A stretch of DNA of 64,000 nt from the human T2T-CHM13v2.0 reference genome, Homo sapiens. Both the position numbers and the translations under genes were made by a program. Shown piece after piece: positions 28,883 through 64,000 of the stretch (position 1 is its first letter; each line of letters opens with the position of its first letter). The notes below the pieces were generated by a model that had not been told where the DNA came from, searched no databases, and saw only the letters and a list, made by a program, of their open reading frames with translations. The DNA lies in assembly GCA_009914755.4 (NCBI GenBank), contig CP068257.2, positions 7,072,001 through 7,136,000 on the forward strand. Reading direction: 5' to 3'.

Positions 28883-28884
28883 CA

Positions 28885-29414: not shown

Positions 29415-29755
29415 GCTATTAGTCCCTTACCAGATATACGATTTGCAAATATTTTCTTACATTCTGTAGGTTGTCTTGTCCTGAAACTGCATGTCATTTT
29501 TTTATGCTCTTTTATTTTTTGTTCTTACTGTTTCCTCTTTTATTTGTCTAAGCACTTTAAGTAATATTCTTTTGGGTGTTATATAATCATTCAACTGTCT
29601 GAAATCCAATTCACCCACTTTTTTCCTATTGACTATTTCTCATGATGGATTATTTCTTCAGATATTTTGTAACATTTGCTTAACTGGTTTTAAATTATGA
29701 AAATTGAGAAAGATTCTTTGCTTCATGAAATTTGGTCAGGCTCCTAAACCTTCTC

Positions 29756-32700
29756 TGGAATGGAATAGAATGAAATGGAATGGAGTTGAATGGGATGGAA
29801 TGGAATGGAATGGACTCGAATGAAATGGAATGGAATGGAGTCGAATGGAAAAGAACGGACTTGAATGGAATGGAATGGAATGGAAAGGAATGGAATGGAA
29901 TGGACTCAAAAGGAATGGAATGGAATGGACTCAAGTGGAATGGAATGGACTCGAATGCAATAGAATGGAATGGAATGGACTTGAATGGAATGGAATGGAA
30001 TGGAATGGAATGGAATGGACAGGAATGCAATGGAAGGGAATGGAATGGAATGCACTTGAATGGAATAGAATGGAAAGGAATGGAATGGACTGGAGTGATA
30101 TGGAATAGAAAGGACTCGAATGGAATGGAATGGACTATAGTGGAATGGAATGGAATAGAATGGACTCGAATGGAATGGAGTGGAATGGATTCGAATGGAA
30201 TGGAATGGAATTGAATGGATTCTAGTCAAACGGAATGTAATGGTATGGAATGGACGTGAATGGAATGGAATGGAATGGACTCGAATGGAATGAAATGGAA
30301 TGGAATTGACAGGAATAAAATGGAAAGGAAGAGATTGGAACGGATTGGAATGGAAAGGAATGGAATGCAATGGACTCGAATGCAATGGAATGTACTCGAA
30401 TGGAATGGAATGGAATGCAATAGAATGGACTCGAATGGAATAGAGCAGAATTTACTGGATTGGAATCTAATGGTATAGAGTCTAATGGAATGGAATGGAA
30501 TGGATTCGAATGGAATAGAATGGAATGGAATGGACTCGAATGGAATGGAATGGAATGGACAGAAAAGGTATGGAATGGAATGGGATGCAATGGAATTGCC
30601 TGGAGTGGAAGGGAATGGAATGGAGTGGAATGGAACGGAATGGACTTGAAGGGAATAGAATGGAATGGAAAGGAATGGACTCGAATGAAATGGAATGGAA
30701 AGGACTCAAATGCAATAGAATGGATTCGAATGTAATGTAATGTAATGGAATGGACTCGAATGGAATGGACTCAAGAGGAATGGAACGGAGTGGACTCGAA
30801 TGAAATGAAATGCAGGGGAAGGAACTCGAATGGCATGCAATGGAATGGAATAGACTCGAATGGAATGGAATGGAATGGACTCGAATGGAGTGGAAAGGAA
30901 TGGATCCGAATGGAAAGGAGAGGAATGGAATGGAATAGCATGGAATGGAATGGAATGGAATGGAATGGAATGGAATGGAATGGAATAGAATGGAATGGAA
31001 TAGAAGGGAATGGAATGGATTTTAATGGAATGGAATGGAATGGAATGGAATGGACTCGAACGGAGTGGAATGGAATCGAATGGAATGGAATGGAATGGAT
31101 TCGAGTGGAATACAGTGGAATAGTGTCGAATGGAATTCAAATGAATAAACACCAATGGAATGGAATGGACTTGAATGGAAAAGAAAGGAAATGACTCGAG
31201 TGGAATGGAATGGAAAGCAATAGAAAGGAAAGGAAATGACTCGAGTGGAATGGGATGGAATGGAATGGAATGCGCTCGAATGCAATGGAATGGAATTGAC
31301 TCGAATAGAATAGAAAGGAATGGACTCGAATAGAATGGAATGGAATGGAATGGGCTCGAATGCAATGGAGTGAAATGGACTCAAATGGAGTGGAAAGGAC
31401 TTAAATGGACTGGAATCGAATAGAATGCAACGGACTCGAATGGGATGGAATGGAAAGGACACGAATGGAACGGAATGGAATGAAATGGAATGGAATGGAT
31501 TGGAATGGAATGGGATGGAATGGAATGGAATGAAATGCAATGGGATGGTATGGTATGGATTGGAATGGACTTGAATGGAATAGAAAAGGATGGAATGGAA
31601 AGGAATGCATTTAAAAAGAATGGAATGGAATGGAATCCAATGGAATGGAAAGGCCACGAACTGAATGGAATGTAATGGAAGGGAATCGAATGGAATAGAT
31701 TGGAATTTAGTGGAATGGAATCTAATGGAATGGAATGGAATGGATTCGAATGTAATAGAATGGAATGGAATGGATTCGAATGTAATAGAATGGAATGGAA
31801 TGGAAAGGAATGTACTGTAATGGAATGGAATGGAACCAAATGGAATCGAATGGAATGGAATTTAAAAGATTCGATTGGAATGGAATGTACTCAAATGGAA
31901 TGGAATGGAATGGAAACAACTCGAGTGGAATGAAATGGAATGGAATGGAATCAAATGTAATGGAAAGGGATTGAATGGACTCGAATGGAATGGAATGGAA
32001 AGGAATGGCATGGTCTCGAGTGGAATGGAACGGAATGCAACTCAGTGGAATCGAATGGAATGGAATTGACTCAAATAGAATTGAATGGAATGGACCAGAA
32101 TGGAATTAAATGTAATGGAATGGACACACATGAAATGGACTCGAATGGAATGGAATGGAATGAAAAGGAATGGAATGGAATGGAATGATTTCGAATGGAA
32201 TGACATGGAATGATTTCGAATTGAATGACATGGAAAGGACTCGAATGGAATGGGTTGGGATTGGATGGTCTCGAATGAAATTGAATGGAATGAACTCAAA
32301 TGGAATGGAATGGAATAGAATGGACAAGAATATAATGGAATGGAATTGGCTCGAATGGAATGGAATTGATTCGAGTGGAATGGAATGGACATGAAAGGAA
32401 TAGAATGGAATGGACTCGAATGGAATGGAATGGACTCAAATGGAATGGAATGGAATGGACTCAAATGGAATAGAGTGGAATGGAATGGAATCGAATGCAA
32501 TGGAATGGAATGGACTCAAACAGAATGGAATGGACTCCAGTGGAATGGAATGGAATGGTATGGTCTCAAATGGAATGGAATGGAATGGAACAGATTCAAA
32601 TGGAATAGAATGGAATGGAATCAAATCTAATAGAGTGGAATGGAATGGACTCGAATGGAATGGAGAGTAATGGAATCGAACGGAAAGGAATGGAATTTAA

Positions 32701-35700
32701 TGAATTCCAATGGAATGGAGTGGAATTGAATGGACTCAAAAGAAATGGATGGGAATGCAATGAAATGGACTGGACTGGAAAGGAATGGAATGGAATGGAC
32801 TCGAATGGAATGGAAGGGACTCGAATGGAGTGGAGCCGAATGGATTCAAATGGAAGGTAATGGAAAGGAATGGAATGAACTCGAATGTAATGGAATGGAC
32901 TTGAATGGAATGGAAGGGACTCAGAGTGTAGCCGAATGGATTTGAATGGAATGGAATGGAATGGAATGGAATGAACTCGAATGGAATGGAATGTAATGGA
33001 ATGAAATGGACTCGAATGGAATGGCATGGAATGGAGTCGATGGAAGGGAATGGAATGGAATGGCATAAAATGGAATGGAATGGACTCAAATGTAATGCAG
33101 TTGAATAGAATGTACCTGAAAGGAATGGAGTGGAATGGAATGCAATGAAATGGACTCGAACGGAATGGAATGGAATGGAATGGAATGGAATGGACTCAAA
33201 TGAAATGGAATGGACAGGAAACGAATGGAATGGAATAGAATCGACTCGAGTGGAATGGAAGGGAATGGACTCGAATGAAATGGAATGCAGTGGAATAGAC
33301 TGGAATGGAATGCAATGGAATGAAATAAACTCGAATGGAATGGAATGGACTCGAATAGAAGGGAATGGAATGGACCTGAATGGAATGGAATGGAATGGAA
33401 GGGAACAGAATGGAAAAGAATGGATTGGAATAGAATGGAATGGAATCAAGTGAACTCAAATGGAATGGAATGGAATGGACTCGAATGGAATAGAATGGAA
33501 TTTACTGGATTGGAATCTAACAGAATTGACTCTAAAGAAATGGAATGGAATGCACCCGAATGGAAGCGAATGGAATGGAATGGACTCGAATGGAATGGAA
33601 TGGAATGGAATGGAATGGAATGGAATGGAATGGAATGGAACTGAATGGAATGGAGTTGAATGCAATAGAATGGAATGGACTCGAATGAAATCGAATGGAA
33701 TGGAGTCAAATGGAATGGAATGGAATGGAATGGACTCAAAAGGAATGGAATGGAATGGAATCAAGTGGAATGGAATGGACTCGAATGCAATAGAATTGAA
33801 TGGAATTGAATCGAATGGAAATGAATGAAATGGACAGGAATGGAATGGAATGGAATGGAATGGAATGGAATGGAATGGAATGGAATGGAAAGGGATGGAC
33901 TGAAATGGAATGGAATGGAATGGACTGAAATGCAATGGAATGGACTTGAATGGAATAGAATGGAAAAGAATGGAATGGACTCGAATGATATGGAATACAA
34001 AGGACTCGAATGGAATGGAATGTACGCTAGTGGAGTGGAATGGGATAGAATGGCCTCAAATGGAATGGAGTGGAATGGATTCGAATGGATTGGAATGGAA
34101 TTCAATGGATTTGAGTCAAACGGAATGTAATGGTATGAAAATGGACTCGAATGGAATGGAATGGAATGGACTTGAATGGAATGGAATGGAATGGAATGGA
34201 AAGGAATAAAATGGAATGGAATAGAATGGAATGGAATAGAATGGAATGGACTTGAATGCAATGGAATGGATTCGAATGGAATAGAGAGGAATTTACTGGA
34301 TTGGAATCTAATGCTACGGACTCTAACGGAATGGAATGGAATAGACTCAAAAGGAATAGAAAGGAAGGGAATGGACTCGAATGGAATGGAATGAAATGGA
34401 CACGAAAGGTATGGAATGGAATGGGATGGAATGGAAGGGACTGGAATGGAAGGGAATGGAATGGAGTGGAATGGAACGGAATGGACTTAAATGGAATAGA
34501 ATAGAAAGGAAAGGAATGGACGCAAATGAAATGGAATGGAAAGGACTCAAATGCAATGGAATGGATTCGAATGGAATGGAATGGACTTGAATGTAATCGA
34601 ATGGAATGGACTCAAGTGGAATGGAATGGAGTGGACTCGAATGAAATGGAATACAGGGGAAGGAACTCGAATGGCATGCAATGGAATGGAATAGACTCGA
34701 ATGGAATGGGATGGAATGGAATCGAATGGAGTGGAATGGAATTGACACGAATGGAATGGAACGGAATGGGATGGAATGAAATGGAATGGAATGGAGAGGA
34801 ATGGAATGGAATGGAATGGAGAGGAATGGAATGGAATGGAATGGATTGGAATAGAATGGAAAGGAATGGAATGGAATAGAAAAGGAAGGTAATGGAATGG
34901 AATGGAATAGAATGGAATGGAATGGATTTTAATGGAATGAATTGGAATGGAATGGAGTCAAATGGAGTGGAATGGACTCGAATTGAATGGAATGGAATGG
35001 AATGCACTCGAGTGGAATAGAGTGGAATTGACTCGAATGGAATTCAATGGAATGAACTCCAATGGAATGGAATGGACTCGAATGGAATGGAAACGACTCG
35101 AGTGGAATGGAATGGATTGGAAAGGAATGGAAAGGAAATGACTGGAGTGGAATGGAATGGAATGGAATGGAAGGTACTCGAATGGAATGGAATGGAATTG
35201 ACTCGAATGGAATAGAAAGGAATGGACTCGAATAGAATAGAATGGAATGGAATGAACTCAAATGCAATGGAGTGGAATGGACTCGAATGGAATGGAAAGG
35301 AACTAAATGGACTGGAATCAATTGGAATGCAACAGACTCGAATGGAATGGAATGGAAAGGACATGAATGGAATGGAATGGAATGGAATGGAATGGAATGG
35401 AATGGAATGCTATGGGATGGTAAGATTTGGATTGGAATGGACTTGAATGGAATAGAAAGGGATGGAATGTAATGAATTTAAACAGAATGGAATGGAATCG
35501 ACTCCAATGGAATGGAAAGGCCACGAATTGAATGATATGGAATGGAACAGACTGGAATGCAATAGATTGGAATTTAGTGAAATGGACTCTGATGGAATGG
35601 ACTGGAATGGAATCGAATGTAATACAATGAAATGGAATGGAAAGGAATGTAATTTAATAGAATGAAATGGAATCAAACGGAATGGAATTTAAAGGACTTG

Positions 35701-37500
35701 AATGGAATGAAATGTACTCAAATGGAATGGGATGGAATGGAAACGACTTGAGTGGAATGAAATGGAATGCAATGGAATTGAATGAAATGGAATGGGATTG
35801 AATGGACTTGAATGGAATGGAATGGAATGGCATGGTCTCGAATGGAATGGAATGCAATTGAATGGACTCAAAAGGAATGAAATAGAATTGACTCGAATGG
35901 AATTGAATGGAATGGACCAGAATGGAATTAAGTGTGATGGTATGGACACGAATGAAATGGAAAGGAATGGTCTCAAATGGAATAGAATGGAATGGAATGG
36001 AATGGAATGATTTCAGATCAAAGGACATGGAATAGACTCGAACGGAATGGGTTCGGATTGGATGGTCTCGAATGTAATGTAATGGAATGGACTCAAATGG
36101 AATGGAATGGAATAGAATGGACTCGAATATAATAGAATGGAATTGGCTCGAATGGAATGGAATGGATTCGAGTGGAATGGAATGGTCACGAATGGAATAG
36201 AATGCAATGGATTCGAATGCAATGGAATGGAATTGAATGGACTCTAATGGAATGGAATGGACTTGAATGCAATGGAATGGAATGGATTCGAATGGAATGA
36301 AATGGACTCCAGTGGAATGGAATGGAATGGTATGGTCTCAAATGGAATGGAACGGATTCAAATGGAACAGAATGGAATGGACTCGAATCTAATGGAGTGG
36401 AATTGAATGGACTCAAATGGAATGGAGGCTAATGGAATTGAGTGGAATGGAAAGGAATTTAAAGGACTCAAATGGAACGGAATGGAATTGAATGGACCCA
36501 AAAGTTATGGATTGGAATGGACTCGAATGGAATGGAATGGAATGGACTCGAATGGAATGGAAGGGACTCTAATGAAATGGAATTGAAAGGAATCCACTCG
36601 AGTGAAAAGGAATAAAATGGAATGGAATGCACATGAATGGAATGGAATGGAGTTGACTCGAAAGGAATAGAAAGGAATGGACTCGAATGGAATGAAATAG
36701 AATGCAATGGACTCGAATGGAATAGAGTGGAATAGAACCGAATGGAAAAGAATAGAATAGAGTCGAATTGAATGAAGTGGAATGGAATGAACAAGAATGG
36801 AATTGAGTGGAATGGACTCGAAGAGAATGGAATCGAATTGAAAGGACAGGAATGGAATGGAATGCAATGGAATGGAATGGAATGGAAAGGAATGGAATGG
36901 AAAGGAATGGAATCGAATGGAATGGAACGTAATGGAATGAAATGGACTCGAATGGAATGGAATCCAATGGAATGGACAGGAATGAAATAGAATGGAAATG
37001 AAAAGAATGGAATGGAATGGACTCAATGGAAATCAACTGAATTGAATGGACTCGAAAGGAATGGAATGGAATGGAATGGAATGGAGTGGAATGATATGGA
37101 CTTGAATAGAATGGAATGGAATAAAATGGAATGGAATGGTGTCGAATGGGAGTGAATGGAAAGCAATGGAATGGACTCAAATGGAATGGAATGGAATTGA
37201 CACAATTGGAATAGAATGGAATGGAATAGACTCTAAAGGAATGGAATGGAATGGACACGAAACATATGGAATGGAATGGGATGGGATAAAATGGACTGGA
37301 ATGGAAGGGAATGGAATGGAGTGGAATGGAATGGAATGGAATTCAATGGAATAGAATGGAATGGAATAGACTCTAAAGGAATGGAATGGAATGGACACGA
37401 AACATATGGAATGGAATGGGATGGGATAAAATGGACTGGAATGGAAGGGAATGGAATGGAGTGGAATGGAATGGAATGGAATTCAATGGAATAGAATGGA
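29756..37500 (+). repeat. Two diverged copies of a ~3.85-kb higher-order repeat (copy A ~29,756-33,640, truncated at the array edge; copy B ~33,645-37,500)
   Basis: Colinear similarity at a constant offset of ~3.81-3.90 kb across the whole interval. Examples: 29,775-29,990 vs 33,645-33,830; 30,445 'gaatttactggattggaatctaatgg' vs 34,287; 30,650-30,800 vs 34,500-34,650; 31,310-31,470 vs 35,213-35,370; 32,215-32,400 vs 36,020-36,200. Also seen as similar artifactual ORF translations at the same offsets. Confidence 0.75.
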
Positions 37501-37504
37501 ATGG

Positions 37505-39240
37505 AATGGAATGGATTCGAATGAAATGGAATGGAAAGGACTCGAATGCAATAGAATGGATTTGAATGTAATGTAATGGAATGGAATGGACTCAAAACGA
37601 ATGGAACGGAATGGACTCAAGTGGAATGGAATGGAATGGACTCGAATGGAATAGAATGGAATGGAATGGAATGTACTCGAATGGAATGGAATTGAATGGA
37701 CACGAATGGAATGGAATGAAGTGGAATGGAATGAACTGGAATGGAATGGAATGGAGTGGAATGAAAAGGAATGGACTTGAATTGAATAGAATGGAGTGGA
37801 ATGGAATGGACTCGAATGAAATGAAATGGAAAGGACCTCAATGCAATGGAATGGACTAGAATGGAATGTAATGGATTGGTATGGACTCGAATGGAATGGA
37901 ATAGAATGGACTAAAGAGGAATGAAATGAAATATATTCGAATGGAATATAATGGAAAGGAAAGGGCTCGTATGGAATGGAATGGACACGAATGGAATGGA
38001 ATGGAGAGGAATGGAATGGACTGGAATGGAATGGAATGGAACGGAAAGGAATGGAATGAAATGGAATGGGCTAGAATGGAAGAGAATGGAATGGAATGGA
38101 ATGAACTCGAATGAAATGGAGTGGAATGGACTCGAATGGAATGGAATGGATACGAGTGGAATGGAATGGAATCGAATGGAACGGAATGGAAAGGAATCAA
38201 ATGGAATTTAATGGAATGGAATGGAATGGAATGGAAAGGAATGGACTCGAATGGAATGCAGTGGAATGGATTCGAATGGAATGGAATGGAATGAAAGGGA
38301 ATCGAAGAAATGGAATGGAATGGAATGGACTCGAATGAAATGGAATGTAAAGGACTCGAATGCAAAGGAATGGAATCAAATGTAATGTAATGGAATGGAC
38401 TAGAATGGAATGGAACGGAATGGACTCAAGTGGAATGGAATGGAATGGACTCAAATGGAATAGAATGGAATGGAATGGAATGTACTCGAATGGAATGGAA
38501 TTGAATGGACATGAATGGAATGGAATGAAGTGGAATGGAATGGACTGGAGTGGAATGGAGTGGACTGGAATGGAATGGAATGGAGTGGAATGGAATGGAG
38601 TGGAATGGAAAGGAATGGAAATGAACGGAATAGAATGGAGTGGTATGGAATGGACTCGAAGGAAATGGAATGGAAAGGATTGAATACAATGGGATGGACT
38701 CGAATGGAATGTAATGGATTGGAATGGACTCGAATGGAATGGAATGGAATGGACTAAAGAGGAATGAAATGAAATATATTCGAATGGAATATAACGAAAA
38801 GGAAAGGGCTCATATGGAATGGAATGGACACGAATGGAATGGAATGGAATGGACTGGAATGGAATGGAATGGAGTAGAATGGAATGGAAAGGAATGGAAT
38901 GGAATGGGCTAGAATGGAATAGAATGGAATGGAATGGAATGCACTCGAAATAAATGGAATGGAATGGACTCGAATGGAATGGAATGGACATGAGTGGAAT
39001 GGAATGGAATCGAATGGAAAGGAATGGAAAGGAATCAAATGGAATTTAATGGAATGGAATGGAATGGAATGGACTCAAATGGAATGCACTGGAATGGATT
39101 CGAATGGAATGGATTGAAACTGAATGGACTCGAGTCGAACGGAATGTAATAGTAAGGAATGCACTCAAATGGAATGGAATTTAATGGAATGGAATGAAAG
39201 GGACTTGAAGAAATGGAATGGAATGGAATGGAATGGAATG
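37505..39240 (+). repeat. Two copies of a ~0.83-kb repeat block (37,505-38,340 and 38,340-39,240), related to a sub-segment of the 3.85-kb unit
   Basis: 37,581-37,760 vs 38,399-38,580 ('...MEWNGMYSNGMELNGHEWNGMKWNGM...' in both ORF translations); 37,926 vs 38,769 (MKYIRMEYN...); 38,140-38,330 vs 38,980-39,240. Contains a perfect 2x140-bp tandem duplication at 37,211-37,490 just upstream. Confidence 0.7.
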
Positions 39241-40321
39241 GAATAGAATGCAATGGAATGGACAAGAAAGGAGTGCAGTTGAATTGAATGGACCCAAAAG
39301 GAATGGAATGGAATGGAATGGAAGGCAGTGGACTCGAACAGAATGCAACGGAAATGACTAAAATGGAATGGAATGGACTCGAATGGAATGGAATGGAATG
39401 GAATGGACTCGAAAGGAATGGCATGGATTGCACCCGAATGGAATGGAATGTTATGGAAAGTAAAGGACTCGAATGGAATGGAATGGAATGGAATTCACCC
39501 AAATGGAGTGGAATGGAATGCAATGGACTCGAATTGAATGGAACGCAATGGACAAGAATGGAATGGAATGGAATGGAATAGAATGGACTGGAATGGAATA
39601 GCTTGGAATGGAATGGACTTGAATGCAATGGAATGTAATGGACTCGAAAGGAATGGAATGGACTCAAACGGAATGGAGTGGACTGGGCTCAAATGGAATG
39701 GAATGGAATGGAATGGTCTCGAGTGGAATGGAAAGTAACAGAAGGGAATGAATTCGAATGGAATAGAATGGATTCAAATGGAATAGAATGGATACGAATG
39801 GAATGGAATGGAATGGATTAAAATGAAATGGAATGGAATGGAATCGACTCGAATGAAATGGAATGCAGTGGAATGGACTGGAATGGCATGCAATGGAATG
39901 GAAGAAACTTGAATGGAATCAAATGAACTCGAATGGAAGGGAATGGAATGGTTGCGAATGGAATGGAATGGAACGGAATGGCATGGAATGTAATGGAATA
40001 GAATGGAATAGAATTGATTAGAAAGGATTGGAATAGAATGGAATGGAATGGAATAGACTGAAATGGAATGGAATGCAATGGACTCGAATTGAATAGAGTG
40101 GGATATACTGGATTGGAATTTAATGGAATTTGACACTAATGAAATGGAATGAAATGGACTCAAATGAAATCAAATGTAGTGGAATGGACTCGTATGGAAT
40201 GGAATGGACACGAATGAAATGGAATGGAATGGAGTTGAATGGAATGGAATGGAATGGAATGGAAGGGAATGGAGTTGAATGGAATAGAATGGAATGGACT
40301 CGAATGAAATGGAATGGAATG
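39241..40321 (+). repeat. Copy 1 of a near-identical ~1.08-kb duplicated satellite block
   Basis: Colinear with 40,783-41,867 at offset ~1,542 bp, estimated 98-99% identity by eye, with a few substitutions and one GGAATGG indel. Confidence 0.85.
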
Positions 40322-40782
40322 GCCTCGAATGGAATGGAATGGAATGGAATTGACACTAATGGAATTGAAGGGAATGGACCCGAATGGAATGGAATGGACT
40401 TCAATTGAATGCAGTGGAATTCATTGGGCTCAAATGGAATGGAATGGAATGGAATGGAATGGAATGGAATGGAATGGAAAAGAATGGAATGGAATAGAAT
40501 GGAATGGGATTGAATGGAATGGACATGAATGTAATGGAATGGACTCAAATGGAATAGCATGGAATGGAATGGAATGGACTCAAGTGGAATAGCATGGAAT
40601 GGAATGCACTTGAATACAATGGAGTGGAATGGACCCGAATGGAATAGAATGGCATTGAACGGATTCAAATGCAATGGAACGTAACGGAATAGAATGAACT
40701 CGAATGGAATGTAATGTAACGGAATGAAATGTGTTCAAACGCATTGTAATACAATGGAATAGAATGGAATGGAATGGAATGG

Positions 40783-41867
40783 AATAGAATGCAATGGAAT
40801 GGACAAGAAAGGAGTGCAGTTGAATAGAATGGACCCAAAAGGAATGGAATGGAATGGAATGGAAGGCAGTGGACTCGAACAGAATGCAACGGAAATGACT
40901 AAAATGGAATGGAATGGACTCGAATGGAATGGAATGGAATGGACTCAAAAGGAATGTCATGGATTGCACCCGAATGGAATGGAATGTTATGGAAAGTAAA
41001 GGACTCGAATGGAATGGAATGGAATGGAATTCACCCAAATGGAGTGGAATGGAATGCAATGGACTCGAATTGAATGGAACGCAATGGACAAGAATGGAAT
41101 GGAATGGAATGGAATGGAATAGAATGGACTGGAATGGAATAGCTTGGAATGGAATGGACTTCAATGCAATGGAATGTAATGGACTCGAAAGGAATGGAAT
41201 GGACTCAAACGGAATGGAGTGGACTGGGCTCAAATGGAATGGAATGGAATGGAATGGACTCGAGTGGAATGGAAAGTAACAGAAGGGAATGAATTCGAAT
41301 GGAATAGAATGGATTCAAATGGAATAGAATGGATACGAATGGAATGGAATGGAATGGATTAAAATGAAATGGAATGGAATGGAATCGACTCGAATGAAAT
41401 GGAATGCAGTGGAATGGACTGGAATGGCATGCAATGGAATGGAAGAAACTTGAATGGAATCAAATGAACTCGAATGGAAGGGAATGGAATGGTTGCGAAT
41501 GGAATGGAATGGAACGGAATGGCATGGAATGTAATGGAATAGAATGGAATAGAATTGATTAGAAAGGATTGGAATAGAATGGAATGGAATGGAATGGAAT
41601 AGACTGAAATGGAATGGAATGCAATGGACTCGAATTGAATAGAGTGGGATATACTGGATTGGAATTTAATGGAATTTGACACCAATGAAATGGAATGAAA
41701 TGGACTCAAATGAAATCAAATGTAGTGGAATGGACTCGTATGGAATGGAATGGACACGAATGAAATGGAATGGAATGGAGTGGAATGGAATGGAATGGAA
41801 TGGAATGGAAGGGAATGGAGTTGAATGGAATAGAATGGAATGGACTCGAATGAAATGGAATGGAATG
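40783..41867 (+). repeat. Copy 2 of the near-identical ~1.08-kb duplicated satellite block
   Basis: See copy 1. Homology stops at ~41,867 ('gactcgaatgaaatggaatggaatgg' then divergent), so this is a duplicated block, not a strict tandem repeat. Confidence 0.85.
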
Positions 41868-50800: not shown

Positions 50801-52451
50801 TGGAATGAAATGGACTCGAATGGAATACAATGGAATTTAAATGAATAGAATCTATTGGAATGGAATGGAATGGTCTCGAATGGAATAGAATGGAATAGAC
50901 TCGAATGGAATGGAATTAAATAGAATACAATGGACACGAATGGAATGGAATGGAATGCAATAACATGGAATGGTATGGATTGGAATGGATTTGAATGGAA
51001 CAGAATGGGAGGGAATGGAATGAATTCAAAAGGAAAGGAATGGAACGGAATGCAATGGAATGGAAAGGCCACGAGTGGAATGGAATGGAATGAAATAGAA
51101 TAGATTGCAATTTAGTGAAATGCACTCTAAATGAATTGAATGGAATGGACTTGAATGCAATAGAATGGAATGGAATCGAATGGAATGAAATGGAATGGAC
51201 TTGAATGGAAAAGAATAGAATGGAGTGGAACGGAATGGATTAGAATGGAATTGAGTTTAATAGACTCGAATGGAATGGAATGTAAGTAAAAGGACAGGAA
51301 TGGAAAGGAATGTAATGGAATGGAATGGAAAAGAATGGTATGGAAAGAATGGAATGCAATAGAATGGAATGGAATGGATTGGAATGGAATGGACTCGAAT
51401 GGAATGTAATGGAATCGACCCAAATAGAATGTAAAGGAATGGAATAGACTCGAAAGGAATGGAAAGGAATGGAATGGACTCGAATGGAATGGACTCGAAG
51501 GGAATGGTATGTAATGGCATCCAATGGAATGGAATGGAATGGACTCTATTGAAATAGAATGTACCCAAATGGAATGGAATGGAGTGGAATGGAATGGAAT
51601 GCAACGGAGAGGAATGGAGAGGAATGGAATGGAATGGAGAGGAATGGAATGGAATGGAATGGAATAGATTGGAATGGAATTGATTGGAATAGAATGGAAT
51701 GGAAAGGAATGGACTCAAACGGAATGGAATGCGGTCGAATGGAATGAAATGAAATGGAATGACCTCGAATGGAATAGAATGGAATTTACTGGATTGGAAA
51801 CCAATGGAATGGACTCGAATGGAATGGAATGGAATGGACTCGAATGGAATGGAATGGTATGGACTCGAATGGAATTAAATGGAATGGGATGGACTCGAAT
51901 GGAATGGAATGGAATGGACTCAAATGGAAAAAGAGTGGATTGGAACGGCCTCGAATGAAATGGAATGGAATGGAGTCAAATGGAATGGTATGGACTCAAA
52001 CGGAGTGGAGCCGAATGGATTCGAATGGAATGGACTGGAATGGAATGGAATGAATTCGAATGGAATGGAATGGAATGGAATGAAATGGACTCAAATGGAA
52101 TGGCATGGAAAGGACTCGAATGGAATGGAAAGAAATGGAATGGAATGGAATGAAATAGAATGGACCCGAAGGAAATGGAATGGAATAGAGTCGATTTGAA
52201 TGAAATGGAATGGAATGGTCCCGAATGAAATGGAATGCAGTGGAATCGACTGGAAAGGCATGAAATGGAATGGAATAAACTCGAATGGAATGGAATGGAG
52301 TCGAATGGAACGTAATGGAATGGACCCGAATGGAATGGAATGTAATGGAATAGAATAGAATGGAACAGAATGGATTGGAATAGAATGGAATTGAAAGGAG
52401 TGGACTCAAGTGGAATGGAATGGAATGGACTCGAATGGAATAGAATGGAAT

Positions 52452-55400
52452 TTACTGGATTGGAATCCAACGGAATTGACTCTACTGAAATAGAGTGGAA
52501 TGGACTCAAATGGAATGGAATGGAATGGAATGGCATGGAATGGAATGGAATGGAATAGAGTTGAATGTAATAGAACGGAATGGAAAGGAATGGACTGTAA
52601 TGAAATGGAATGGAATGGAGACGAATGGAATGGAATAGAATGGAACAGAATGGAATGGACTCGAAAGGAATGGCATGGACTCAAATGGAATGCAATCAAA
52701 TGGACTCAAATGCAATAGAATGGAATGGAATGGAATGGAGTGTAATGGAAAAAAATGGAATGCAATGGAATGGACTTGAGTGGAAGAGAATGGAAAGGAA
52801 TAAAATGGACTCGAATGACATGGAATAGAATGGAATCAAATGGAATGGAATGGACTCTAGTTGATTTTAATGGAATAGAATGGACTCGATTGGAATGGAG
52901 TGGAATGGAGTGGAATGGGTTTCAATGGAATGGAAGGGAATTGAATGGATTCGTGTAGAACGGAATGTAATGGTATGGAATGGACTCAAATGGAGAGGAA
53001 GGAAATGGAATGGAATGGAAAGAAATGGACTCGAGAGGAATGGGATGGAATGGAATGGAATGAAATGGAATGGAATTGAATATAATTTAATGGATTGGAA
53101 TGGAATGGAATGAAATCAAATGCAATGGAATGTACTCGAATGGAATGGAATGGAAAGGACTCAAATGGAATAGAATGGAATTGTCCGGATTGAAATCTAA
53201 TGGTATAGACTCGAATGGAATGGAATGGACTCAAATGGAAGAGAATGGAATGGAATGGACTCAAGCGGAATGGAATGGTATGGACACAAAATGTATGGAA
53301 TGGAATGGGATGGAATGGAATGGATTGGAATGGACGGAATGGAACAGAGTGGAATAGAATGGAATGGACTTGAATGGAATAAAATGGAATGGAAAGGAAT
53401 GGACTAGAATTAAATGGAATGGAGAAGACTGAAATGCAATGGAATGGACTTGAATGGAATGGAATGGAATGGATAGGACTGAAATGCAATGGAATGGACT
53501 GGAATGGAATATAATGGAATGGAATGGACTCGAATGGAATGGAATGGAATGTACTCAATTGGAATGGAATGGACTCGAATGAAATGGAATGCAGTGGAAT
53601 GTAGTAGAATGGCATGCATTGGAATGGAATACACTCTAATGGAATGGAATGGAATGGAATCGAATCAAATGGAATCGAATGGACAGGAATGGAATGGACC
53701 CGAATGGAATTGAAAGGAATGGAATGGAGAGGAATAGAAGGGCATTGAATGGATTGGAATGGAATGGAATGGAATGAAATGGAATAAAATGGAATGGGAT
53801 GGACACAAATGGAATGGAATGGACTCTAATGGAAGAGAGTGGATTGGAATGGACTCGAATGGAATGGTTTAGATTCGAACGGTGTGGAGACGAATGGATT
53901 AGAAAGGATTGGACTAGAATGGAATGGAATGAACTCGAGTGGAATGCAACGGAATGGAATGAAACGGACTCAAATGGAATGGCATTGAATGGACTCGAAT
54001 GGAATGGACTCGAATGGAATGGAATGGAATGGAATGGAATTGAATGAAAAGGAATGGAATGGAATGGAATGGAGCCGAATGAAATGGAATGCAGTGGAAT
54101 CGACTGGAATGGCATGAAATGGAATGGAATAAACTCGAATGGAATGGAATGGATTCGAATGGAAGGTAATGGAATGGACCCGAATGGAATGGAATGTAAT
54201 GGAATAGAATAGAATGGAACAGAATGGATTGGAATAGAATGGAATTGTATGGAGTAGACTCAAGTGGAATGGAATGGAATGGACTTGAATGGAAGAGAAT
54301 GGAATTTACTGGATTGGAGTCTAACGGAATTGACTCTACTGAAATGGAATGAAATGGACTCGAATGGAATGGAATGGAATGGAATGGAGTAGAGTTGAAT
54401 GCAATAGAACGGAATGGAAAGGAATGGACTCTAATGAAATGGAATGGAATGGAGTCGAATGGAATGGAATAGAATGGAACGGATTGGAATGGACTCAAAT
54501 GGAATGAATGGAATGGACTCAAATGCAATAGAATGGAATGGAATGGAATGGACTCGAATGGAATGGACAGGAATGGAATGGAATGGAATGGAATGGAGTG
54601 TAATGGAATGGAATGGAAAGCAATGGAATGGACTTGAGTGGAATAGAATGGAAAGGAATGGAATGGACTCTAATGACGTGGAATAGAATGGAATCAAATG
54701 GAATGGAGTGGAATCTAGTTGAATTTAATGGAGTAGAAAGGACTTGATTGGAATGGAGTGGAATGGAGTGGAATGGCTTTCAATGGAATGGAAGGGAATT
54801 GAATGGATTCGAGTGGAACAGAATGTAGTGGTTTGGAATGGACTAAATGGAGTCGAAACAAATGGAATGGAATGGAATGAAACGGACTCAAAAGGAATGG
54901 AATGAAATGGAATGGAATGGAATGGAATGGAATGGAATGGACTCAAATGCAATGGAATGTACTCGAATGGAATGGAATGGAATGCAATGGAAAGGACTCA
55001 AATGGAATAGAATGGAATTTTCCGGATTGAAATCTAATGGTATGGAATCTAATGGAATGGAATGGAACGGACTCCAATGGAAGAGAGTGGAATGGAATGC
55101 ACTCGAATGGAAGAGAATGTAATGGAATGGACTCAAAGGGAATGGAGTAGAATGAACACGAAATGTATGGAATGGAATGGGATGGAATGGAATGGACTGA
55201 TATGGAAGGAATCGAACGGAGTGGAAAAGAATGGAATGCAATTGAATGGAATAAAATGGAATGGAAAGCAATTGACTAGAATGAAATGGAATGGATAGGA
55301 CTGAAATGCAATGGAAAGGACTCGAATGGAATGGAATGGATAGGACTGAAATGCAATGGAATGGACTCGAATGGAATATAATGGAATGGAATGGAATGGA

Positions 55401-58400
55401 CTCGAATGGAATGGAATGGACTCAAATGGAATGGAATGGACTCGAATGAAATGGAATGCAGTAGAATGTAGTAGAATGGCATGCATTGGAATGGAATATA
55501 CTCTAATGGAATGGAATGGAATGGAATGGAATCGAAAGGACAGGAATGGAATGGACCCAAATGGAATTGAAAGGAATGGAATGGAATGGAGAGGAACGGA
55601 AGGGCATTGAATGGATTGGAATTCAATAGAATGGAATGAAATGGAATAAAATGGAATGGGATGGACTCGAATGGAATGGAATGGAATGGACTCTAATGGA
55701 AGAGAGTGGATTGGAATGGACTTGAATGCAAAGGAATGGAATGGACTCTAATGGAATGGTTTGGATTTGAACAGTGTGGAGACGAATGGATTCGAATGGA
55801 ATGGGCTGGAATGGAATGGAATGAACTCAAATGGAATGGAATGGAATGGAATGAAATGGACTCAAATGGAATTGCATGGAATGGACTCGAATGGAATGGA
55901 ATGGAATGGAATGGCGTGGAATGGAATGGAATGGACTCGAATGGAAAGCAGTTCAATTGAATGTACCTGAAACGTATGGATTGGAATGGAATGGAATGGA
56001 ATGAAATGGATTCGAATGGAATGGAAAGGAATGGAATGGACTCAAATGAAATGGAATGGACCTGAATGGAATGGAATGCAATAAAATCGACTCGAGTGGA
56101 ATGTAATGCAATGGACTCGAATTAAATGGAATGCAGTGGAATGGACTGGAATGGCATGCAATGGAATGAAATAAACTTGAAAGGTAAGGAACGGAATAGA
56201 ATGGACTCGAAAGGATGGGAATGGAATGGACTTGAATGGAATGGAATGGAATGGAATAGAATGGAACAGAATGGATTAGTAGAGAATGGAATTGAATGGA
56301 GTGGACTCAAGTGGAATGGAATGGAATGGACTCGAATAGAATAGAATGGAATTTATTGGATTGGAATCTAACGGAATTGACTCTAACGAAATGGAATGGA
56401 ATAGACTCGAATGGAAGCGAACGGAATGGAATGGACTCGAACAGAATGGAATGGAATGGAACGGAATGGAATGGCATGGAATGGAATGCAATAGAATGGA
56501 ATTGATTGGAATGGACTCAAATAAAATGGAATGGAATGGAGTCAACTGCAATGGAATGGACTCGAATGGAATGGAAAGGAATGGACTCAAGTGGAATGCA
56601 ATGGAATGGAATCGAATGCAATAGAATGTAATGGAATGGACTCAAATGGAATGGAATGGAACGGAATCGAATGAAATAGAATGGAATGGAATGGACTGGA
56701 ATGGAATGGAATGGAATAGAATGGAATGGACTTGAATGGATTAGAATGGAAAGGAATGGAATGGACTCGAATGATATGGAATAGAATTGACTTGAATGGA
56801 ATGGAAAATGGACTCTAGTTGAATTTAATGGAATAGAATGGACTCGATTGGAATGGAATTGATTGGGTTTCAATGGAATGGAAGGGAGTTGAATGGATTT
56901 GAGTCGAATGGAATGTAATGGTATGGAATGGACTCGAATAGAATGGAATGGAATGGAATGGACTCGAATGCAATTAAATGTACTCGAATGCAATTAAATG
57001 TACTCGAATGAAATGGAATGGAATACAGTGGAATGGACTCAAATGGAATAGAGTGAAATTTTCCGGTTTGTAATCTAATGGTATGGACTCTATTGGAATG
57101 GAATGGAATGGACTCGAATGGAAGAGAATAGAATAGAATGGATTCAAATGGAATAGAATGGAATGGACACGAAAGATACAGAATGGAATGGGATGGAATG
57201 GAATGGACTGGAAGGGAAGGGAATTGAGTGGAGTGGAATGTAACGGAATGGACATGAATGGAATAAAATGGAATGGAGAGGAATGGATTCGAATCAAATG
57301 GAATGGAAAGGACTCAAATGCCATGGAAAAGATTTGAATGGAAAGTAATGGAAAGGAACGTACTCAAATGGAATGAAATGGAATGGACTCAAATGGAATG
57401 GAATGGACTCAAATGAAATGGAATGCAGTGGAATGTATTCGAATGGCATGCAATGGAAGGGAATATACTCGAATGGAATGGACTTGAATGGAATGGAATG
57501 GAATGGACCCAAATGGGATGGAATGGAATGGAATGGAATGGAATGGAATGGAATGGAATTGAATGGAATGGATAGCAATGGAATGGAATGGAATGGATTT
57601 TAATGGAATGGAATGGAAGAGAATGGACACGAATGGAATAGAATGGAACTGACTCGAATGGAATTCAATGGAATGAATGCCAATGGAATGGAATAGATTA
57701 GAATGGAATGGAATGGAAATGAAAAGACTCACGTGGAATGGAATGGAATGGAATGGAATGGAATGGAATGGAATGGATTGCACTCGAATGGAATGGAATG
57801 GAATTGACTCAAATGTAATAGAAAGGAATGGACTCAAATGGAATGGAATGGAATCGAATGGAATGTACTCTAATACAATGGAGTGGAATGGACTCGAATG
57901 GAATCAAAATGAATTAAATGGACTGGAATCGAATGGAATGGAACAGACGCGAATGGAATGGAAAGGAATGTAATGGACACGAATGGAATGGAATGCAATG
58001 GAAAGGAATGGAATGGAATGGAATGGAATGGAACGGAATGGAACGGAATGGGATTGAATGGTGTGGATTAGAATGGGCTTGAATGGAACAGAAAGGGATG
58101 GAATGGAATGAATATAAAAGGAATGGAATGGAATGGACTCCAATGGAAGGAAAGGCCATGAATTGAATGGAATGGAAGGGAACTGACTCGAATGGAATAG
58201 ATTGGAATTTAGTGGAATGGACTCTATTAGAATGCAATGGAATGCATTTGAATGGAATGGAATTGAATGCAATGGATTCAAAAGGAATGCAATTGAATGG
58301 ACCCAAATAGAATGTAATGGAATGGAATAGACTCTAAAGGAATGGAATGGAACGTAATGGAATGGAATTGACTCGAATGGAATGAAATTTAAAGGATTTG

Positions 58401-61700: not shown

Positions 61701-64000
61701 GATTCGAAAGGAATGGATTGGAATAGACACGAATGGAATGGAATGGAGTGGAATGGAATGGACCCGAATTGAATGGAATGGAATGGAATGGAATGGAATG
61801 GAATGGAAAGGAATGGAAAGGAACACCCTTGAATGGAATGGAATGGAATGGACACGAATGGAATGGAATGGAATGGAACGGAATGAAAAGGAACACACAT
61901 GAATGGAATTGAATGCAAAGGACACGAATGGAATGGAATGGAGTGGATTGGAATGACATGGAGTGGAATGGAATGGAATGGAATGGAACGGAATTGAATG
62001 GAATGGACTTGCATGAAATGGAATGGAATGGACTCAAATGGAATAGAATTGAATCGAGTGGAAAGGAATGGAATGGACTCGAATGGAATGGAATGGAATG
62101 GACTCGAATGGAATGGAATGGAATGGACTCGAATGGAATGGTATGGCATGGAAAGGTCTTGAATGGAATGGAATGGAATGGAATGGAATGAAGTGGCCTC
62201 GAATGGAATGGAATGGATTGGAATGGACTCGAATGAAATGGAATAGACTCGAATGGATTGGAAGAGAATGGAATCGACTAGAGTGCAATGGAATGGAATG
62301 GAATGGATTCGAATGGAATGGAATGAACCCGAATGGAATTGAACAGATTGGAACGGAACGGAGGGGAACGGAACGGAATGGACTCACATGGAATGGAATA
62401 GACTCGAATGGAATAGACTCGAATGCAATGAAATGCTTTGGAATGGACTCGAATACAATGGAATACAATGGACTTGAATGGAATTCAATGGACTCGAAAG
62501 GAATGGAATGGAATGCAATGGAATGGAATCAAATGGAATGCAATGGACTTGACTCGAATGGAATTGAATGGAGTGGCCACGAATGGAAGGTGTGGAATGG
62601 GATGGACTTGAATTGAATGGAAAGTAATGGAGTGGGCTCAAATGGAATGGAATGGAATGGAATTGAATGGACTAGAATCGAATGTAATGTAATGGAGTGG
62701 AATGGACAGGAATGGAATGGAATGGAATGGAATTGAGTAGAATGCAAAGGACTCTAAAGGAATGTAATGGAATGGACCCAAATGGAATGGAGAGAATGGA
62801 GTGGAATGGAATAGAATGGAATGGAGAGGAATGGAATAGAATGAAATGAAATGGATTCAAATGGAATGGAATGGTATTGAATGGAATGGAATGGATTGGA
62901 ATGGAATGGAATGGAATGGAAGCGAGTAGAATGCAAAGGACTCGAAAAGAATGGAATGGAATGGACCCGAATGGAATGGAGAGAATGGAGTGGAATGGAA
63001 TAGAATGGAATGGAGAGGAATGGAATAGAATGAAATGAAATGGATTCAAATGGAATGGAATGGTATTGAATGGAATGGAATGGAATGGAATGGAATGGAT
63101 TGGAATGAAATATAATGGAATTGAATGGACTTGAATGGAATGAATGGAATTGAAAGGAATGGAATGAAATGAAACCGAACGGAATGGAATAGAATGGACT
63201 CGAATGGAATGGAATAGAATGGACTTGAATGGAATTAAATGTACTCGAAAGGAATGGAATGGAATGGAATGGAATCAAATGGAATTGAATGGAATGTAAT
63301 GGAACTGACTCAAATGCAATTTAATGCAGTGGCCACGAATGGAAGGGTTGGAATGGAATGAATTGGAATTGAATGGAAAGGAATGGATTGGACTCAAATG
63401 GAATGGAATGGAATGGATTGGAATAGAATTGAATGGAATGGATTCAAATAGAATGGCATGGAACGGAATGGACTCGAATGCAATAGAAAGGAATGGACTC
63501 GAATGCAATGGTATGGAATTGAATGTAATAGAGTAGAATGGACTCCAATGGAATGGAATGGAATTGAATAGACTAGAATAGAATAGAATGACACGGAATG
63601 GAATGAACTCGAATGGAATGGAATGGAATGGAATGGAATTAAATGGACTGGAATGGAATGGAATGGAAGGGAATGGAATGGAATGCATTTGAAATGAATG
63701 GACCCGAAAAGCATGGAATGGAATGGAATGGAATTGAAAGAAGTGGCTATGAATGGAATGGAATGGAATGGAATGGACTTGAATGAAAAGGAAAGGACTC
63801 GAATGGAATGGAATGGAATGGAATGGAATCAACTCCAGTGCAAAGGAATGGAATTGAATGGATGCGAATGGAATGGACCCAAATGGAATGGAACAGAATG
63901 GAATGCAACGGAATGGAGAGGAACGGAATGGAATGGAACGGAATGGAATGGAACGGGACAGAATGGAACGGAACGCAATGGATTGAAATGGAATGGAATA

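What the first reader, a model, noticed from the sequence alone, without database searches (positions are those of the whole stretch)
29756..64000. More than 34 kb of uninterrupted single-orientation (GGAAT)n satellite with no transposon insertions; HSat3 more likely than HSat2
There is no strand switch, no Alu or L1 insertion and no non-satellite island anywhere in the array, whereas the adjacent 29.7 kb carries about one Alu per kb. That implies insertions are removed or homogenised away in the array, or that the array is younger than the flank. The G-rich (GGAAT) strand is the + strand, the same sense as the CpG-island + strand 11 kb upstream. The G-rich strand is the one reported as heat-shock induced SATIII RNA at 9q12, so orientation relative to the neighbouring promoter may matter. 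The subfamily call (HSat3 vs HSat2) rests on the absence of the 23/26-bp CATCATCGAATGGAATCGAATGGAAT organisation and on frequent GGACTCGAATGG interruptions. I did not find the CAACCCGAGT 10-mer often quoted for HSat3, so this may be an HSat3 subfamily that lacks it.
Basis: partly seen in the sequence, partly recalled or inferred. Interest (0 to 1): 0.5.

Follow-up and report, generated by a model that had tools for sequence, protein, structure and literature searches.

The report
Diverged GGAAT satellite (HSat3-type) block
This is an ordinary, old and sequence-diverged stretch of primate pericentromeric "satellite 3" DNA (GGAAT repeats), and it probably has no Alu or L1 insertions mainly because the repeat almost completely lacks the TTTT/AA sites those elements need to insert.

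Summary
Positions 29,756-64,000 form one uninterrupted, single-orientation 5-bp array. It has 6,851 units at 68% TRF matches, GGAAT occurs 2,686 times on + and once on -, there are no Alu hits, and the longest non-pentamer run is 45 bp. It runs off the window end.

It is HSat3-type, not HSat2. Periodicity is strictly 5 bp, ATCATC/CATCATCGAATGG motifs are absent, and no HSat2 marker 24-mer matches. CAACCCGAGT is absent. The recurrent interruption is GGACT-CGAAT, and the only published subfamily marker 24-mer found exactly is HSat3A1's. The call is therefore "A-group, A1-like", with moderate confidence.

The array is not homogenised. Per-base identity to GGAAT is 83%, 79% of its 24-mers are unique, and there is no array-wide higher-order repeat. 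It is a patchwork of local tandem duplications (0.14-4 kb units, 85-99% identity).

The lack of TEs is real against a uniform model (24-35 Alus expected). Canonical L1-endonuclease sites (TTAAAA) are 14-fold rarer in the array, which cuts the expectation to about 2-6. Local turnover and a somewhat younger effective age can cover the remainder.

No canonical heat-shock elements are present, and the link to the CpG island is unsupported. This is an already known kind of sequence, and interest is low.

The parts
29756..64000 (+). Diverged pentameric (GGAAT)n satellite, G-rich strand on +, truncated by the window end. HSat3-type, A-group and A1-like.
   Evidence: TRF gives period 5, 6,851 copies and 68% matches. 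Cyclic alignment gives 82.9% per-base identity, only 118 register-breaking indels and 39.8% exact units; the top variants are GGACT (7.1%) and CGAAT (5.8%). The HSat3A1 marker 24-mer is found exactly twice, and HSat2 markers not at all.
29445..29755 (+). Unique-looking AT-rich flank directly abutting the array. The junction is shared with an independent public contig.
   Evidence: Metagenome contig OJNM01068417.1 (L001) matches window 29,445-29,755 at 303/310 (97.7%) and the first 100 bp of the array at 98%. It is unrelated upstream of 29,445.
29895..36858 (+). Two tandem copies of a unit of about 3.84 kb inside the array. More distant relatives lie at about 56.3-58.5 kb.
   Evidence: 144 shared rare 18-mers at offset 3,841. 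Non-CpG identity is 0.906. Chunk BLAST gives 81-90%.
37601..39161 (+). Tandem duplication with a unit of about 838 bp.
   Evidence: 95 shared rare 18-mers at offset 838. Non-CpG identity is 0.923.
39234..41832 (+). The youngest detected event: a tandem duplication with a unit of about 1,541 bp.
   Evidence: 671 shared rare 18-mers at offset 1,541. Non-CpG identity is 0.994, with 19 of 20 CpGs intact in both copies.
45852..49475 (+). Tandem duplication with a unit of about 2.38 kb.
   Evidence: 80 shared rare 18-mers at offset 2,380. Non-CpG identity is 0.862.
51877..55758 (+). Tandem repeat of a unit of about 1.86 kb, more than 2 copies.
   Evidence: 311 shared rare 18-mers at offset 1,858, with a matched length of 2,024 bp that exceeds the offset. 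Non-CpG identity is 0.928.

Best explanation
The region is the edge of a classical pericentromere-type satellite 3 block. It is an old (GGAAT)n array interspersed with a GGACT-CGAAT 10-mer, and it is closest to Altemose's HSat3A1 subfamily.

Shown: the array does not evolve as a homogenised higher-order repeat. It grows and turns over through local, same-strand tandem duplications of 0.14-4 kb segments, which then diverge. That process keeps it in one orientation and produces a mosaic of blocks that are 85-99% identical.

Shown as a count, inferred as a cause: the array is free of Alu and L1 mainly because GGAAT/ATTCC sequence offers almost no L1-endonuclease nick sites (TTTT/AA). Both L1 and Alu depend on those sites to insert.

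Inferred: local duplication and deletion, a somewhat younger effective age than the flanking Alus, and probably heterochromatin account for the small remaining deficit.

On function: the only sequence-level property shown here is an extreme one-strand density of GGAATG, the TEAD core motif. Published work on HSat3 links that motif to TEAD binding, but binding was not tested for this array.
For: Identity: there is one 5-bp array with 68% matches. Periodicity is strictly 5 bp, with none at 23 or 26 bp. HSat2 motifs are absent. Among the 14 published marker 24-mers, only HSat3A1's occurs exactly (2 times; 36 within 1 mismatch); the three HSat2 markers and HSat3B4 have no match at up to 3 mismatches and HSat3B1 has none at up to 2. 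GGACTCGAAT occurs 153 times, against 5 for GGAGTCGAAT (the A2-type unit) and 36 for GGAATCGAAT (the ancestral HSat2 10-mer). Published HSat3A1 reads have low self-similarity, with fold compression 7.4, which matches this array, where 27,032 of 34,222 24-mers are distinct. HS3-type oocyte transcripts align at 76-86%, while an HSat2-type transcript aligns at 69-70%.

Mode of evolution: there is a patchwork of tandem duplications at offsets of 140, 838, 1,541, 1,858, 2,380, 3,841 and about 4,000 bp, plus offsets of 22.7 and 26.6 kb. All are on the same strand, with non-CpG identity of 0.85-0.99. This matches the 'hyper-local' nested tandem repeat expansion described for HSat2,3.

TE absence: a length-proportional model expects 24-35 Alus (P(0) <= 1e-11). 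TTAAAA/TTTTAA sites occur at 3.65/kb in the Alu-masked flank and 0.26/kb in the array, 9 sites in total, which gives an expectation of 1.7-2.5 (P(0) 0.08-0.18). Counting one-mismatch sites at weights 0.05-1 raises the expectation to 3.3-6.2.

Age: 60% of CpGs are retained in ACT[CG]AAT units, against 25% in flanking Alus. Per-lineage non-CpG divergence of duplicated blocks is about 0.061, against at most 0.08-0.106 for the Alus.

TEAD core: GGAATG occurs 2,176 times (63.5/kb), all on the + strand. The published HSat3 reporter fragment has 104 per 1.8 kb.
Against: The subfamily call rests on one marker 24-mer per subfamily. The full set of 446 HSat3A1-specific 24-mers was not available: the stored supplement is truncated and lacks them. 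Two exact hits in 34 kb is thin evidence.

The species and chromosomal position could not be determined, and 'HSat3' is a human nomenclature.

The target-site argument assumes that insertion probability scales with present-day site counts and that the flank is a fair reference. With generous weighting of degenerate sites, a significant residual deficit remains (P(0) down to 0.002).

The age estimates are biased. Only detectably similar blocks were used, alignment of low-complexity repeats inflates identity, and Alu divergence was measured against AluY rather than each element's own subfamily consensus.
Confidence: 0.75

Rival explanations
1. Concerted evolution purges insertions. The array is continually homogenised by unequal exchange or gene conversion, so any TE that lands is quickly lost.
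For: Local tandem duplications exist, and the youngest is 99.4% identical. Duplication implies reciprocal deletion. [quoted passage not shown]
Against: The array is not homogeneous. It has 68% TRF matches and 82.9% per-base identity to the unit. The median best paralog identity is 83.7%, 79% of 24-mers are unique, there is no common period, and the longest perfect run is only 55 bp. In alpha satellite, arrays this diverged are TE-enriched, so homogenisation cannot be the main reason here.
Confidence: 0.25
2. The array is younger than its flank. It expanded after the main AluJ/AluS bursts and so never had the chance to collect Alus.
For: CpG retention is 60% in the array's ACT[CG]AAT units, against 25% in flank Alus. 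Block per-lineage divergence is 0.061, against at most 0.08-0.106 for Alus. All flank Alus are old, at 75-89% identity to AluY.
Against: Most blocks are only 85-93% identical, so by inference they are tens of millions of years old, which overlaps the Alu ages. A second copy of the same junction is 2.3% diverged, so the boundary and the start of the array are not recent. Per-base divergence from GGAAT (17%) exceeds Alu divergence. The CpG-to-non-CpG rate ratio is somewhat lower in the array (9.3 against 13-17), so part of the CpG excess could reflect lower germline methylation rather than youth. An age factor of about 0.4-0.75 cannot alone turn 24-35 expected Alus into 0.
Confidence: 0.3
3. It is HSat2, or an HSat2/3 intermediate, rather than HSat3.
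For: The array contains CGAAT units (5.8% of units) and 36 copies of the ancestral HSat2 10-mer GGAATCGAAT. The dominant 10-mer, GGACTCGAAT, is one substitution away from it.
Against: ATCATC 0, CATCATCGAATGG 0, and no GGAATCGAAT dimer. There is no 23/26-bp periodicity. All three HSat2 marker 24-mers have 0 matches at up to 3 mismatches. An HSat2-type transcript aligns at only 69-70%.
Confidence: 0.02
4. It is a stress-responsive SATIII-like transcription unit. The G-rich strand would be transcribed, either by read-through from the CpG-island promoter 10.9 kb upstream or through HSF1 binding inside the array, as at 9q12.
For: The G-rich strand is the one reported as heat-shock induced. A CpG island lies upstream. 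Polyadenylated HS3 transcripts carrying the same GGACTCGAAT unit exist in oocytes. There are 25 near-HSE sites (at most 1 mismatch) in the GAAnnTTCnnGAA orientation.
Against: There are no perfect HSE trimers and only 2 dimers in 34 kb. Published data place HSF1 motifs in sub-regions of HSat3 arrays only. The 9q12 subfamily marker (HSat3B5) has 0 exact matches. The island's transcription direction cannot be read from the sequence. The best transcript match is 86%, so it does not come from this locus.
Confidence: 0.05
5. Chromatin exclusion or selection. Constitutive heterochromatin blocks the L1 machinery, or insertions are selected against because they disrupt a protein-binding platform.
For: A residual deficit remains under generous site weighting (3-6 expected against 0 observed). 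GGAATG sites are very dense, and TEAD binding to HSat3 has been published.
Against: This cannot be tested from sequence. It is not needed under the canonical-site model (P(0) 0.08-0.18). GGAATG frequency, at 0.318 per unit, is only about 1.1 times what independent per-position frequencies predict.
Confidence: 0.2

Closest known systems
HSat3A1 (Altemose et al. 2014, PLoS Comput Biol; clones pW-1 and cMEN219; hg19 blocks on chr10p11/q11, 2p11, 20, 21 and 1)
   Same: Both are (GGAAT)n with ACTCGAATGG-type interruptions. The subfamily's most common specific 24-mer is present exactly. Both have very low self-similarity. Blocks in the reference are tens of kb long and sit next to non-satellite pericentromeric sequence.
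   Different: Only 2 exact marker hits were found. The full 446-marker set was not tested, and location and species are unknown. Membership is therefore probable, not established.
HSat3A2
   Same: It is also an A-group subfamily and lacks the CAACCCGAGT unit in its marker. Its marker has 6 hits within 1 mismatch and 78 within 2.
   Different: Its characteristic GGAGTCGAAT unit occurs only 5 times, against 153 for GGACTCGAAT. There is no exact marker hit.
HSat3B5 at 9q12 (the source of heat-shock SATIII RNA in nuclear stress bodies)
   Same: It has the same ancestral pentamer and the same G-rich/C-rich strand asymmetry.
   Different: The marker 24-mer has 0 exact matches, and this array has no canonical HSE trimers. 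The array is much more diverged than the fairly homogeneous AATGG repeats described for B5.
HSat2 (23/26-bp units; ancestral 10-mer AATCGAATGG)
   Same: It shares pentamer ancestry. The array's 10-mer, GGACTCGAAT, is one substitution from GGAATCGAAT.
   Different: There are no ATCATC-containing units, no 23/26-bp period and no marker matches.
Diverged (monomeric) alpha-satellite layers flanking active centromeres
   Same: Both are old, diverged, non-homogenised satellite at the periphery of a satellite domain.
   Different: Diverged alpha satellite accumulates L1 and other TEs and inversions. This array has neither, which fits the near absence of TTTT/AA sites in its unit.

Membership tests
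HSat3 (classical human satellite 3) | Tandem array built on the ATTCC/GGAAT pentamer with strict 5-bp periodicity | tested here: met
   TRF gives period 5 and 6,851 copies. The top 40 autocorrelation lags are all multiples of 5. 91% of spacings between variant units are multiples of 5, and there are only 118 register-breaking indels.
HSat3 (classical human satellite 3) | Interspersed decanucleotide CAACCCGAGT / ATTCGGGTTG, the classical description (cited in PMC7665179) | tested here: not met
   There are 0 occurrences on either strand, and CAACCC occurs 0 times on +. The feature is not universal across subfamilies. Among the published marker 24-mers it appears in HSat3B1's, while the A-group markers shown lack it. 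This lowers the fit to the 'classical/B-type' description but not to HSat3 as now defined.
HSat3 (classical human satellite 3) | Pericentromeric or acrocentric-arm location in a human (hominoid) genome | not testable with these tools
   No human or primate genome collection is available. The Alu-rich flank indicates a primate. One junction-sharing contig was found in a metagenome assembly, without annotation.
HSat3A1 subfamily | Exact matches to HSat3A1-specific 24-mers and not to those of other subfamilies (Altemose 2014 criterion) | tested here: inconclusive
   Only the top marker of each of the 14 subfamilies could be tested. HSat3A1's is the only exact hit (2) and has the most hits within 1 mismatch (36). 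The complete list is truncated in the held supplement.
HSat3A1 subfamily | Low k-mer redundancy (diverse, poorly homogenised sequence) | tested here: met
   Published fold compression is 7.4 for 3A1, against 35-127 for homogenised subfamilies. In the window, 27,032 of 34,222 24-mers are distinct and there is no array-wide period.
HSat2 | 23- and 26-bp units containing CATCATCGAATGG / ATCATC plus GGAATCGAAT repeats | tested here: not met
   ATCATC 0 and CATCATCGAATGG 0. Identity at lag 23 is 0.106 and at lag 26 is 0.326, against 0.69-0.71 at multiples of 5. The GGAATCGAAT dimer occurs 0 times. HSat2A1, A2 and B markers have 0 matches at up to 3 mismatches.
Heat-shock responsive SATIII locus (9q12-type) | HSF1 binding motifs (inverted nGAAn trimers) within the array | tested here: not met
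   There are 0 perfect trimers and 2 dimers in 34 kb. 25 sites have at most 1 mismatch, in one orientation only.
Heat-shock responsive SATIII locus (9q12-type) | HSat3B5 sequence type | tested here: not met
   The HSat3B5 marker 24-mer has 0 exact matches and 4 within 1 mismatch.
TEAD-binding HSat3 platform (Franklin et al. preprint, PMC11526998) | High density of GGAATG core motifs | tested here: met
   There are 2,176 GGAATG (63.5/kb), all on +. The published 1.8-kb test fragment has about 58/kb. Actual binding is not testable here.

The most novel reading that the evidence does not exclude
Pentamer position 3 (the first A of GGAAT) is strikingly invariant. It is 95% conserved, against 72-87% at the other positions. 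Differences between duplicated blocks are 3.5-4.5 times fewer there. The same pattern appears in three unrelated HS3 transcripts. This could reflect purifying constraint on a protein-DNA contact (the TEAD/NFAT/ETS GGAA core) or on a strand-specific DNA structure across even old, decayed HSat3. That would mean such 'junk' arrays are under base-level selection, and that TE-free status is partly maintained by selection. The evidence does not exclude this. Context-dependent mutation rates, and amplification of a limited set of founder variants, are simpler explanations.
Probability: 0.08. Interest if true: 0.5.

Novelty: already known. Interest (0 to 1): 0.12.

Why it matters
On its own this matters little. 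Blocks of diverged (GGAAT)n/HSat3 at pericentromere edges are well catalogued in T2T-era maps. The analysis does add a simple, checkable point: the absence of TEs from this kind of satellite does not need homogenisation or youth to explain it. The repeat unit removes about 80-93% of the expected insertions just by lacking L1-endonuclease target sites. This also explains why diverged alpha satellite, which is AT-rich with A/T runs, collects L1s while equally diverged GGAAT satellite does not. If a genome-wide survey confirmed this, it would be a useful null model for reading TE content as an 'age' marker in satellites.

Tried and rejected
- A full self-BLAST of the array timed out. I replaced it with chunk BLAST and rare-18-mer diagonal clustering.
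Scanning ten stop-free segments, including the CpG-island ORFs, gave no credible family.
- My memory-based guess that the peptide at 29,349-29,561 next to the array is an L1 ORF2 remnant was not confirmed against solved L1 ORF2p sequences. The same test did confirm an L1 remnant at 6,054-6,224.
- I tried to find the locus or its species through exact ORF look-ups, junction or flank patterns in bacterial/archaeal genome contigs and viral contigs. Nothing was found. Only one metagenome contig shares the junction.
- The full subfamily-specific 24-mer list (Altemose Dataset S2) is truncated in the held copy and does not contain the HSat3A1 markers.
- Literature searches for the 10-mer mostly returned unrelated primer hits.
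- I looked for a divergence gradient from the junction inward. Exact GGAAT density falls only slightly, from about 163 to about 152 per 2 kb (rho -0.67, p 0.003). That is too small to interpret.
- I tested whether intact GGAATG is over-retained. It is only about 1.1 times the independent expectation, so I rejected it as evidence of selection.


Full report

Yes. Composition changes abruptly near 29.8 kb. GC skew jumps from about 0.2 or less to 0.58-0.72 and stays there to the end of the window. The sequence shows unique AT-rich DNA running directly into tggaatggaat at 29,756. TRF reports one array, 29,756-63,999, with period 5, 6,851 copies and 68% matches.

GGAAT occurs 2,686 times on the + strand of the array and once on the - strand. 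The flank has 29 on each strand. Every 500-bp window contains 27-49 exact GGAAT. The longest run not covered by an exact rotation of the pentamer is 45 bp, and it is itself degenerate pentamers. The lowest 200-bp GC skew is +0.38. Self-BLAST found no minus-strand matches. So at a resolution of tens of bases there is no strand switch and no foreign island.

The array runs off the window end, so its full size and anything beyond 64,000 are unknown.

**2. What is it?**

It is a strongly diverged pentameric satellite. A cyclic alignment to GGAAT gives 82.9% per-base identity with only 118 register-breaking indels. Of the units, 39.8% are exact, and the longest perfect run is 55 bp.

The variation is not random. 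The commonest variant units are GGACT (7.1%) and CGAAT (5.8%), which together form the 10-mer GGACT-CGAAT (153 exact copies). With its CpG-decayed forms, this unit recurs 349 times. The commonest spacings are 25, 20, 35 and 30 bp.

HSat2 is excluded:
- ATCATC and CATCATCGAATGG are absent.
- Identity at lags 23 and 26 is 0.11 and 0.33, against 0.69-0.71 at multiples of 5.
- The three HSat2 marker 24-mers from Altemose 2014 Table 1 have no match even at 3 mismatches.
- An HSat2-type transcript aligns at only 69-70%, whereas HS3-type transcripts align at 76-86%. That is the same range as the array's own paralogs.

The classical 10-mer CAACCCGAGT is absent. Among the published markers it appears in HSat3B1's. 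The A2-type unit GGAGTCGAAT is rare, with 5 copies.

HSat3A1 is described as one of the least self-similar subfamilies (fold compression 7.4; only 1.4% of windows hit a specific 24-mer). In hg19 it forms blocks of tens of kb next to ordinary sequence on chr10, 2, 20, 21 and 1. The array fits that description, since 79% of its 24-mers are unique.

I therefore call it HSat3, A-group, A1-like. Confidence is high for the family and moderate for the subfamily, because the full marker list was not available. Species and chromosome could not be determined.

One 1,035-bp metagenome contig, which carries a Nextera adapter at one end and is presumably host contamination, has the same junction. It matches the last 310 bp of flank at 97.7% and the first 100 bp of the array at 98%, and it is unrelated further upstream. 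A second, about 2.3%-diverged copy of this boundary therefore exists somewhere. It could be a paralog in a pericentromeric duplication or an ortholog in another primate. Either way the boundary is not a very recent creation (inference).

**3. How does it evolve?**

There is no array-wide higher-order repeat. Ungapped autocorrelation decays to background within about 1.5 kb, and the median best paralog identity of 400-bp chunks is 83.7%. Rare-18-mer diagonals reveal a patchwork of same-strand duplications:
- a 3.84-kb unit in two copies at 29.9-36.9 kb, with further relatives at about 56-58.5 kb
- an 838-bp unit at 37.6-39.2 kb
- a 1,541-bp unit at 39.2-41.8 kb
- a 2.38-kb unit at 45.9-49.5 kb
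- a 1.86-kb unit in more than 2 copies at 51.9-55.8 kb
- several smaller duplications at offsets of 40-190 bp

Their non-CpG identities range from 0.846 to 0.994. This is the 'hyper-local' nested tandem repeat behaviour described for HSat2,3 in the T2T centromere paper. Same-strand unequal exchange or replication slippage explains both the single orientation and the mosaic. The duplications are shown; the mechanism is inferred.

**4. Why are there no TEs?**

Under a uniform, length-proportional model the array should hold 24-35 Alus, with P(0) <= 1e-11.

Alu and L1 integrate by target-primed reverse transcription at L1-endonuclease nicks, with consensus 5'-TTTT/AA (established knowledge). TTAAAA/TTTTAA occurs at 3.65/kb in the Alu-masked flank but at 0.26/kb in the array, which is 9 sites in 34 kb. 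TTTTT is 46-fold depleted.

If insertion scales with canonical sites, 1.7-2.5 Alus are expected and P(0) is 0.08-0.18. If one-mismatch sites count at weights of 0.05-1, the expectation is 3.3-6.2 and P(0) is 0.037-0.002. Target-site scarcity therefore removes about 80-93% of the expected insertions. A small residual may remain.

**5. Is the array homogenised or younger?**

Homogenisation is not supported (paragraphs 2 and 3). In alpha satellite, arrays this diverged are TE-rich.

There is some evidence for a younger effective age. The ACT[CG]AAT unit retains CpG in 211 of 349 cases (60%), whereas flanking Alus retain 84 of 330 (25%). Within duplicated blocks the per-lineage non-CpG divergence is about 0.061. 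For the Alus it is at most 0.08-0.106, which is an upper bound because it was measured against AluY.

CpGs in the array decay about 9 times faster than non-CpG sites (13-17 times in the Alus). So the array has behaved as germline-methylated DNA, perhaps somewhat less so than the Alus.

Taken at face value, the array's present copies are about 0.4-0.75 the age of the flank's Alus. That figure is biased towards youth, because only detectably similar blocks were used. Combined with target-site scarcity it brings the expectation to about 1-4 insertions. Ordinary duplication and deletion turnover, or heterochromatin, can absorb that.

**6. Orientation, promoter and heat shock**

The G-rich strand is indeed the one reported as heat-shock induced. 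The array, however, has no perfect HSE trimer and only two dimers. HSF1 motifs are reported to be confined to sub-regions of HSat3 arrays, and the 9q12 subfamily marker is absent as an exact match.

The CpG island (about 17.25-18.9 kb) lies 10.9 kb away, and several Alus sit in between. It has no strand asymmetry and no recognisable coding exon. Its direction of transcription cannot be read from the sequence.

What the array does have is 63.5 GGAATG (TEAD core) motifs per kb, all on one strand. That is similar to the HSat3 fragment used in published TEAD/YAP reporter work. This is a property of the family, not a special feature of this locus.

**7. Side observation**

Position 3 of the pentamer is far less variable than the others. 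It is 95.4% conserved, against 72-87%. Between duplicated blocks it differs in 3.5% of cases against 10-16%, with A3 vs A4 p about 3e-37. That comparison can be contaminated by misaligned variant units. Three unrelated HS3 transcripts show the same pattern, at 94% against 75-92%.

So this is a general HSat3 feature. It may be a mutational-context effect (GAA against AAT) or it may be constraint. I could not distinguish the two, and I found no mention of it in the papers I read.

**8. Verdict**

The finding is a correct description of an ordinary, already catalogued kind of sequence. The family call is right and can be sharpened to A-group, A1-like. The evolutionary inference needs replacing with a simpler one: lack of L1-endonuclease sites, plus local turnover. 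The promoter and heat-shock speculation is unsupported. Interest is low.

Noticed in passing
window 29756-64000 (all pentamer units); also three transcripts in PMC7665179: Position 3 (the first A) of GGAAT is 95% conserved, against 72-87% at the other positions. Between duplicated blocks it differs 3.5-4.5 times less often. Independent HS3 transcripts show the same pattern (94% against 75-92%). The cause is unknown: mutation context or constraint.
   Followed up: partly
L001 (OJNM01068417.1) 1-1035; window 29445-29947: A metagenome contig with a Nextera adapter at one end carries the same flank/array junction. It matches 97.7% over 310 bp of flank and 98% over the first 100 bp of array, and is unrelated upstream of 29,445. 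This implies a second paralogous or orthologous copy of the junction, or a chimeric assembly.
   Followed up: partly
window 17250-18900: A strong CpG island of about 1.5 kb (GC up to 0.76, CpG o/e about 0.8). It has splice-donor-like GTAAG/GTAAC sites on both strands but no ORF with a Pfam match. It is possibly a non-coding or 5'-UTR promoter. The gene was not identified.
   Followed up: partly
window 23776-23912 (+): Rfam U2 spliceosomal RNA hit (61.4 bits, E 1e-9). It spans model positions 1-192 in only 137 nt, so it is probably a U2 pseudogene with an internal deletion.
   Followed up: no
window 6054-6224 (-), probably extending to about 5787: An L1 ORF2 C-terminal remnant that matches residues 1203-1252 of solved human L1 ORF2p (E 1.9e-13). 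An Alu at 6256-6524 sits directly next to it.
   Followed up: partly
window 19000-23000: Four kb of sustained positive GC skew (+0.16 to +0.32) in non-satellite flank, just downstream of the CpG island. The cause was not examined. It could be a particular old repeat or transcription-associated asymmetry.
   Followed up: no
window 29756-64000: The array's CpG o/e is 0.87, against 0.31 in the flank. Nearly all of its CpGs sit in the recurrent (A/T)CTCGAAT-type unit. Within duplicated blocks the ratio of CpG to non-CpG decay is 9.3, against 13-17 for the flank Alus. This hints at somewhat lower germline methylation of the satellite.
   Followed up: partly
window 28611-29375: Three Alu pieces lie within 1.2 kb of the junction, the nearest ending 380 bp before the array. 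Alu density therefore stays high right up to the boundary and then drops to zero.
   Followed up: yes
window 2075-2110 and 6930-6960: Short (CA)n/(TG)n microsatellites in the flank, seen as THTHTH/CVCVCV runs in translations.
   Followed up: no
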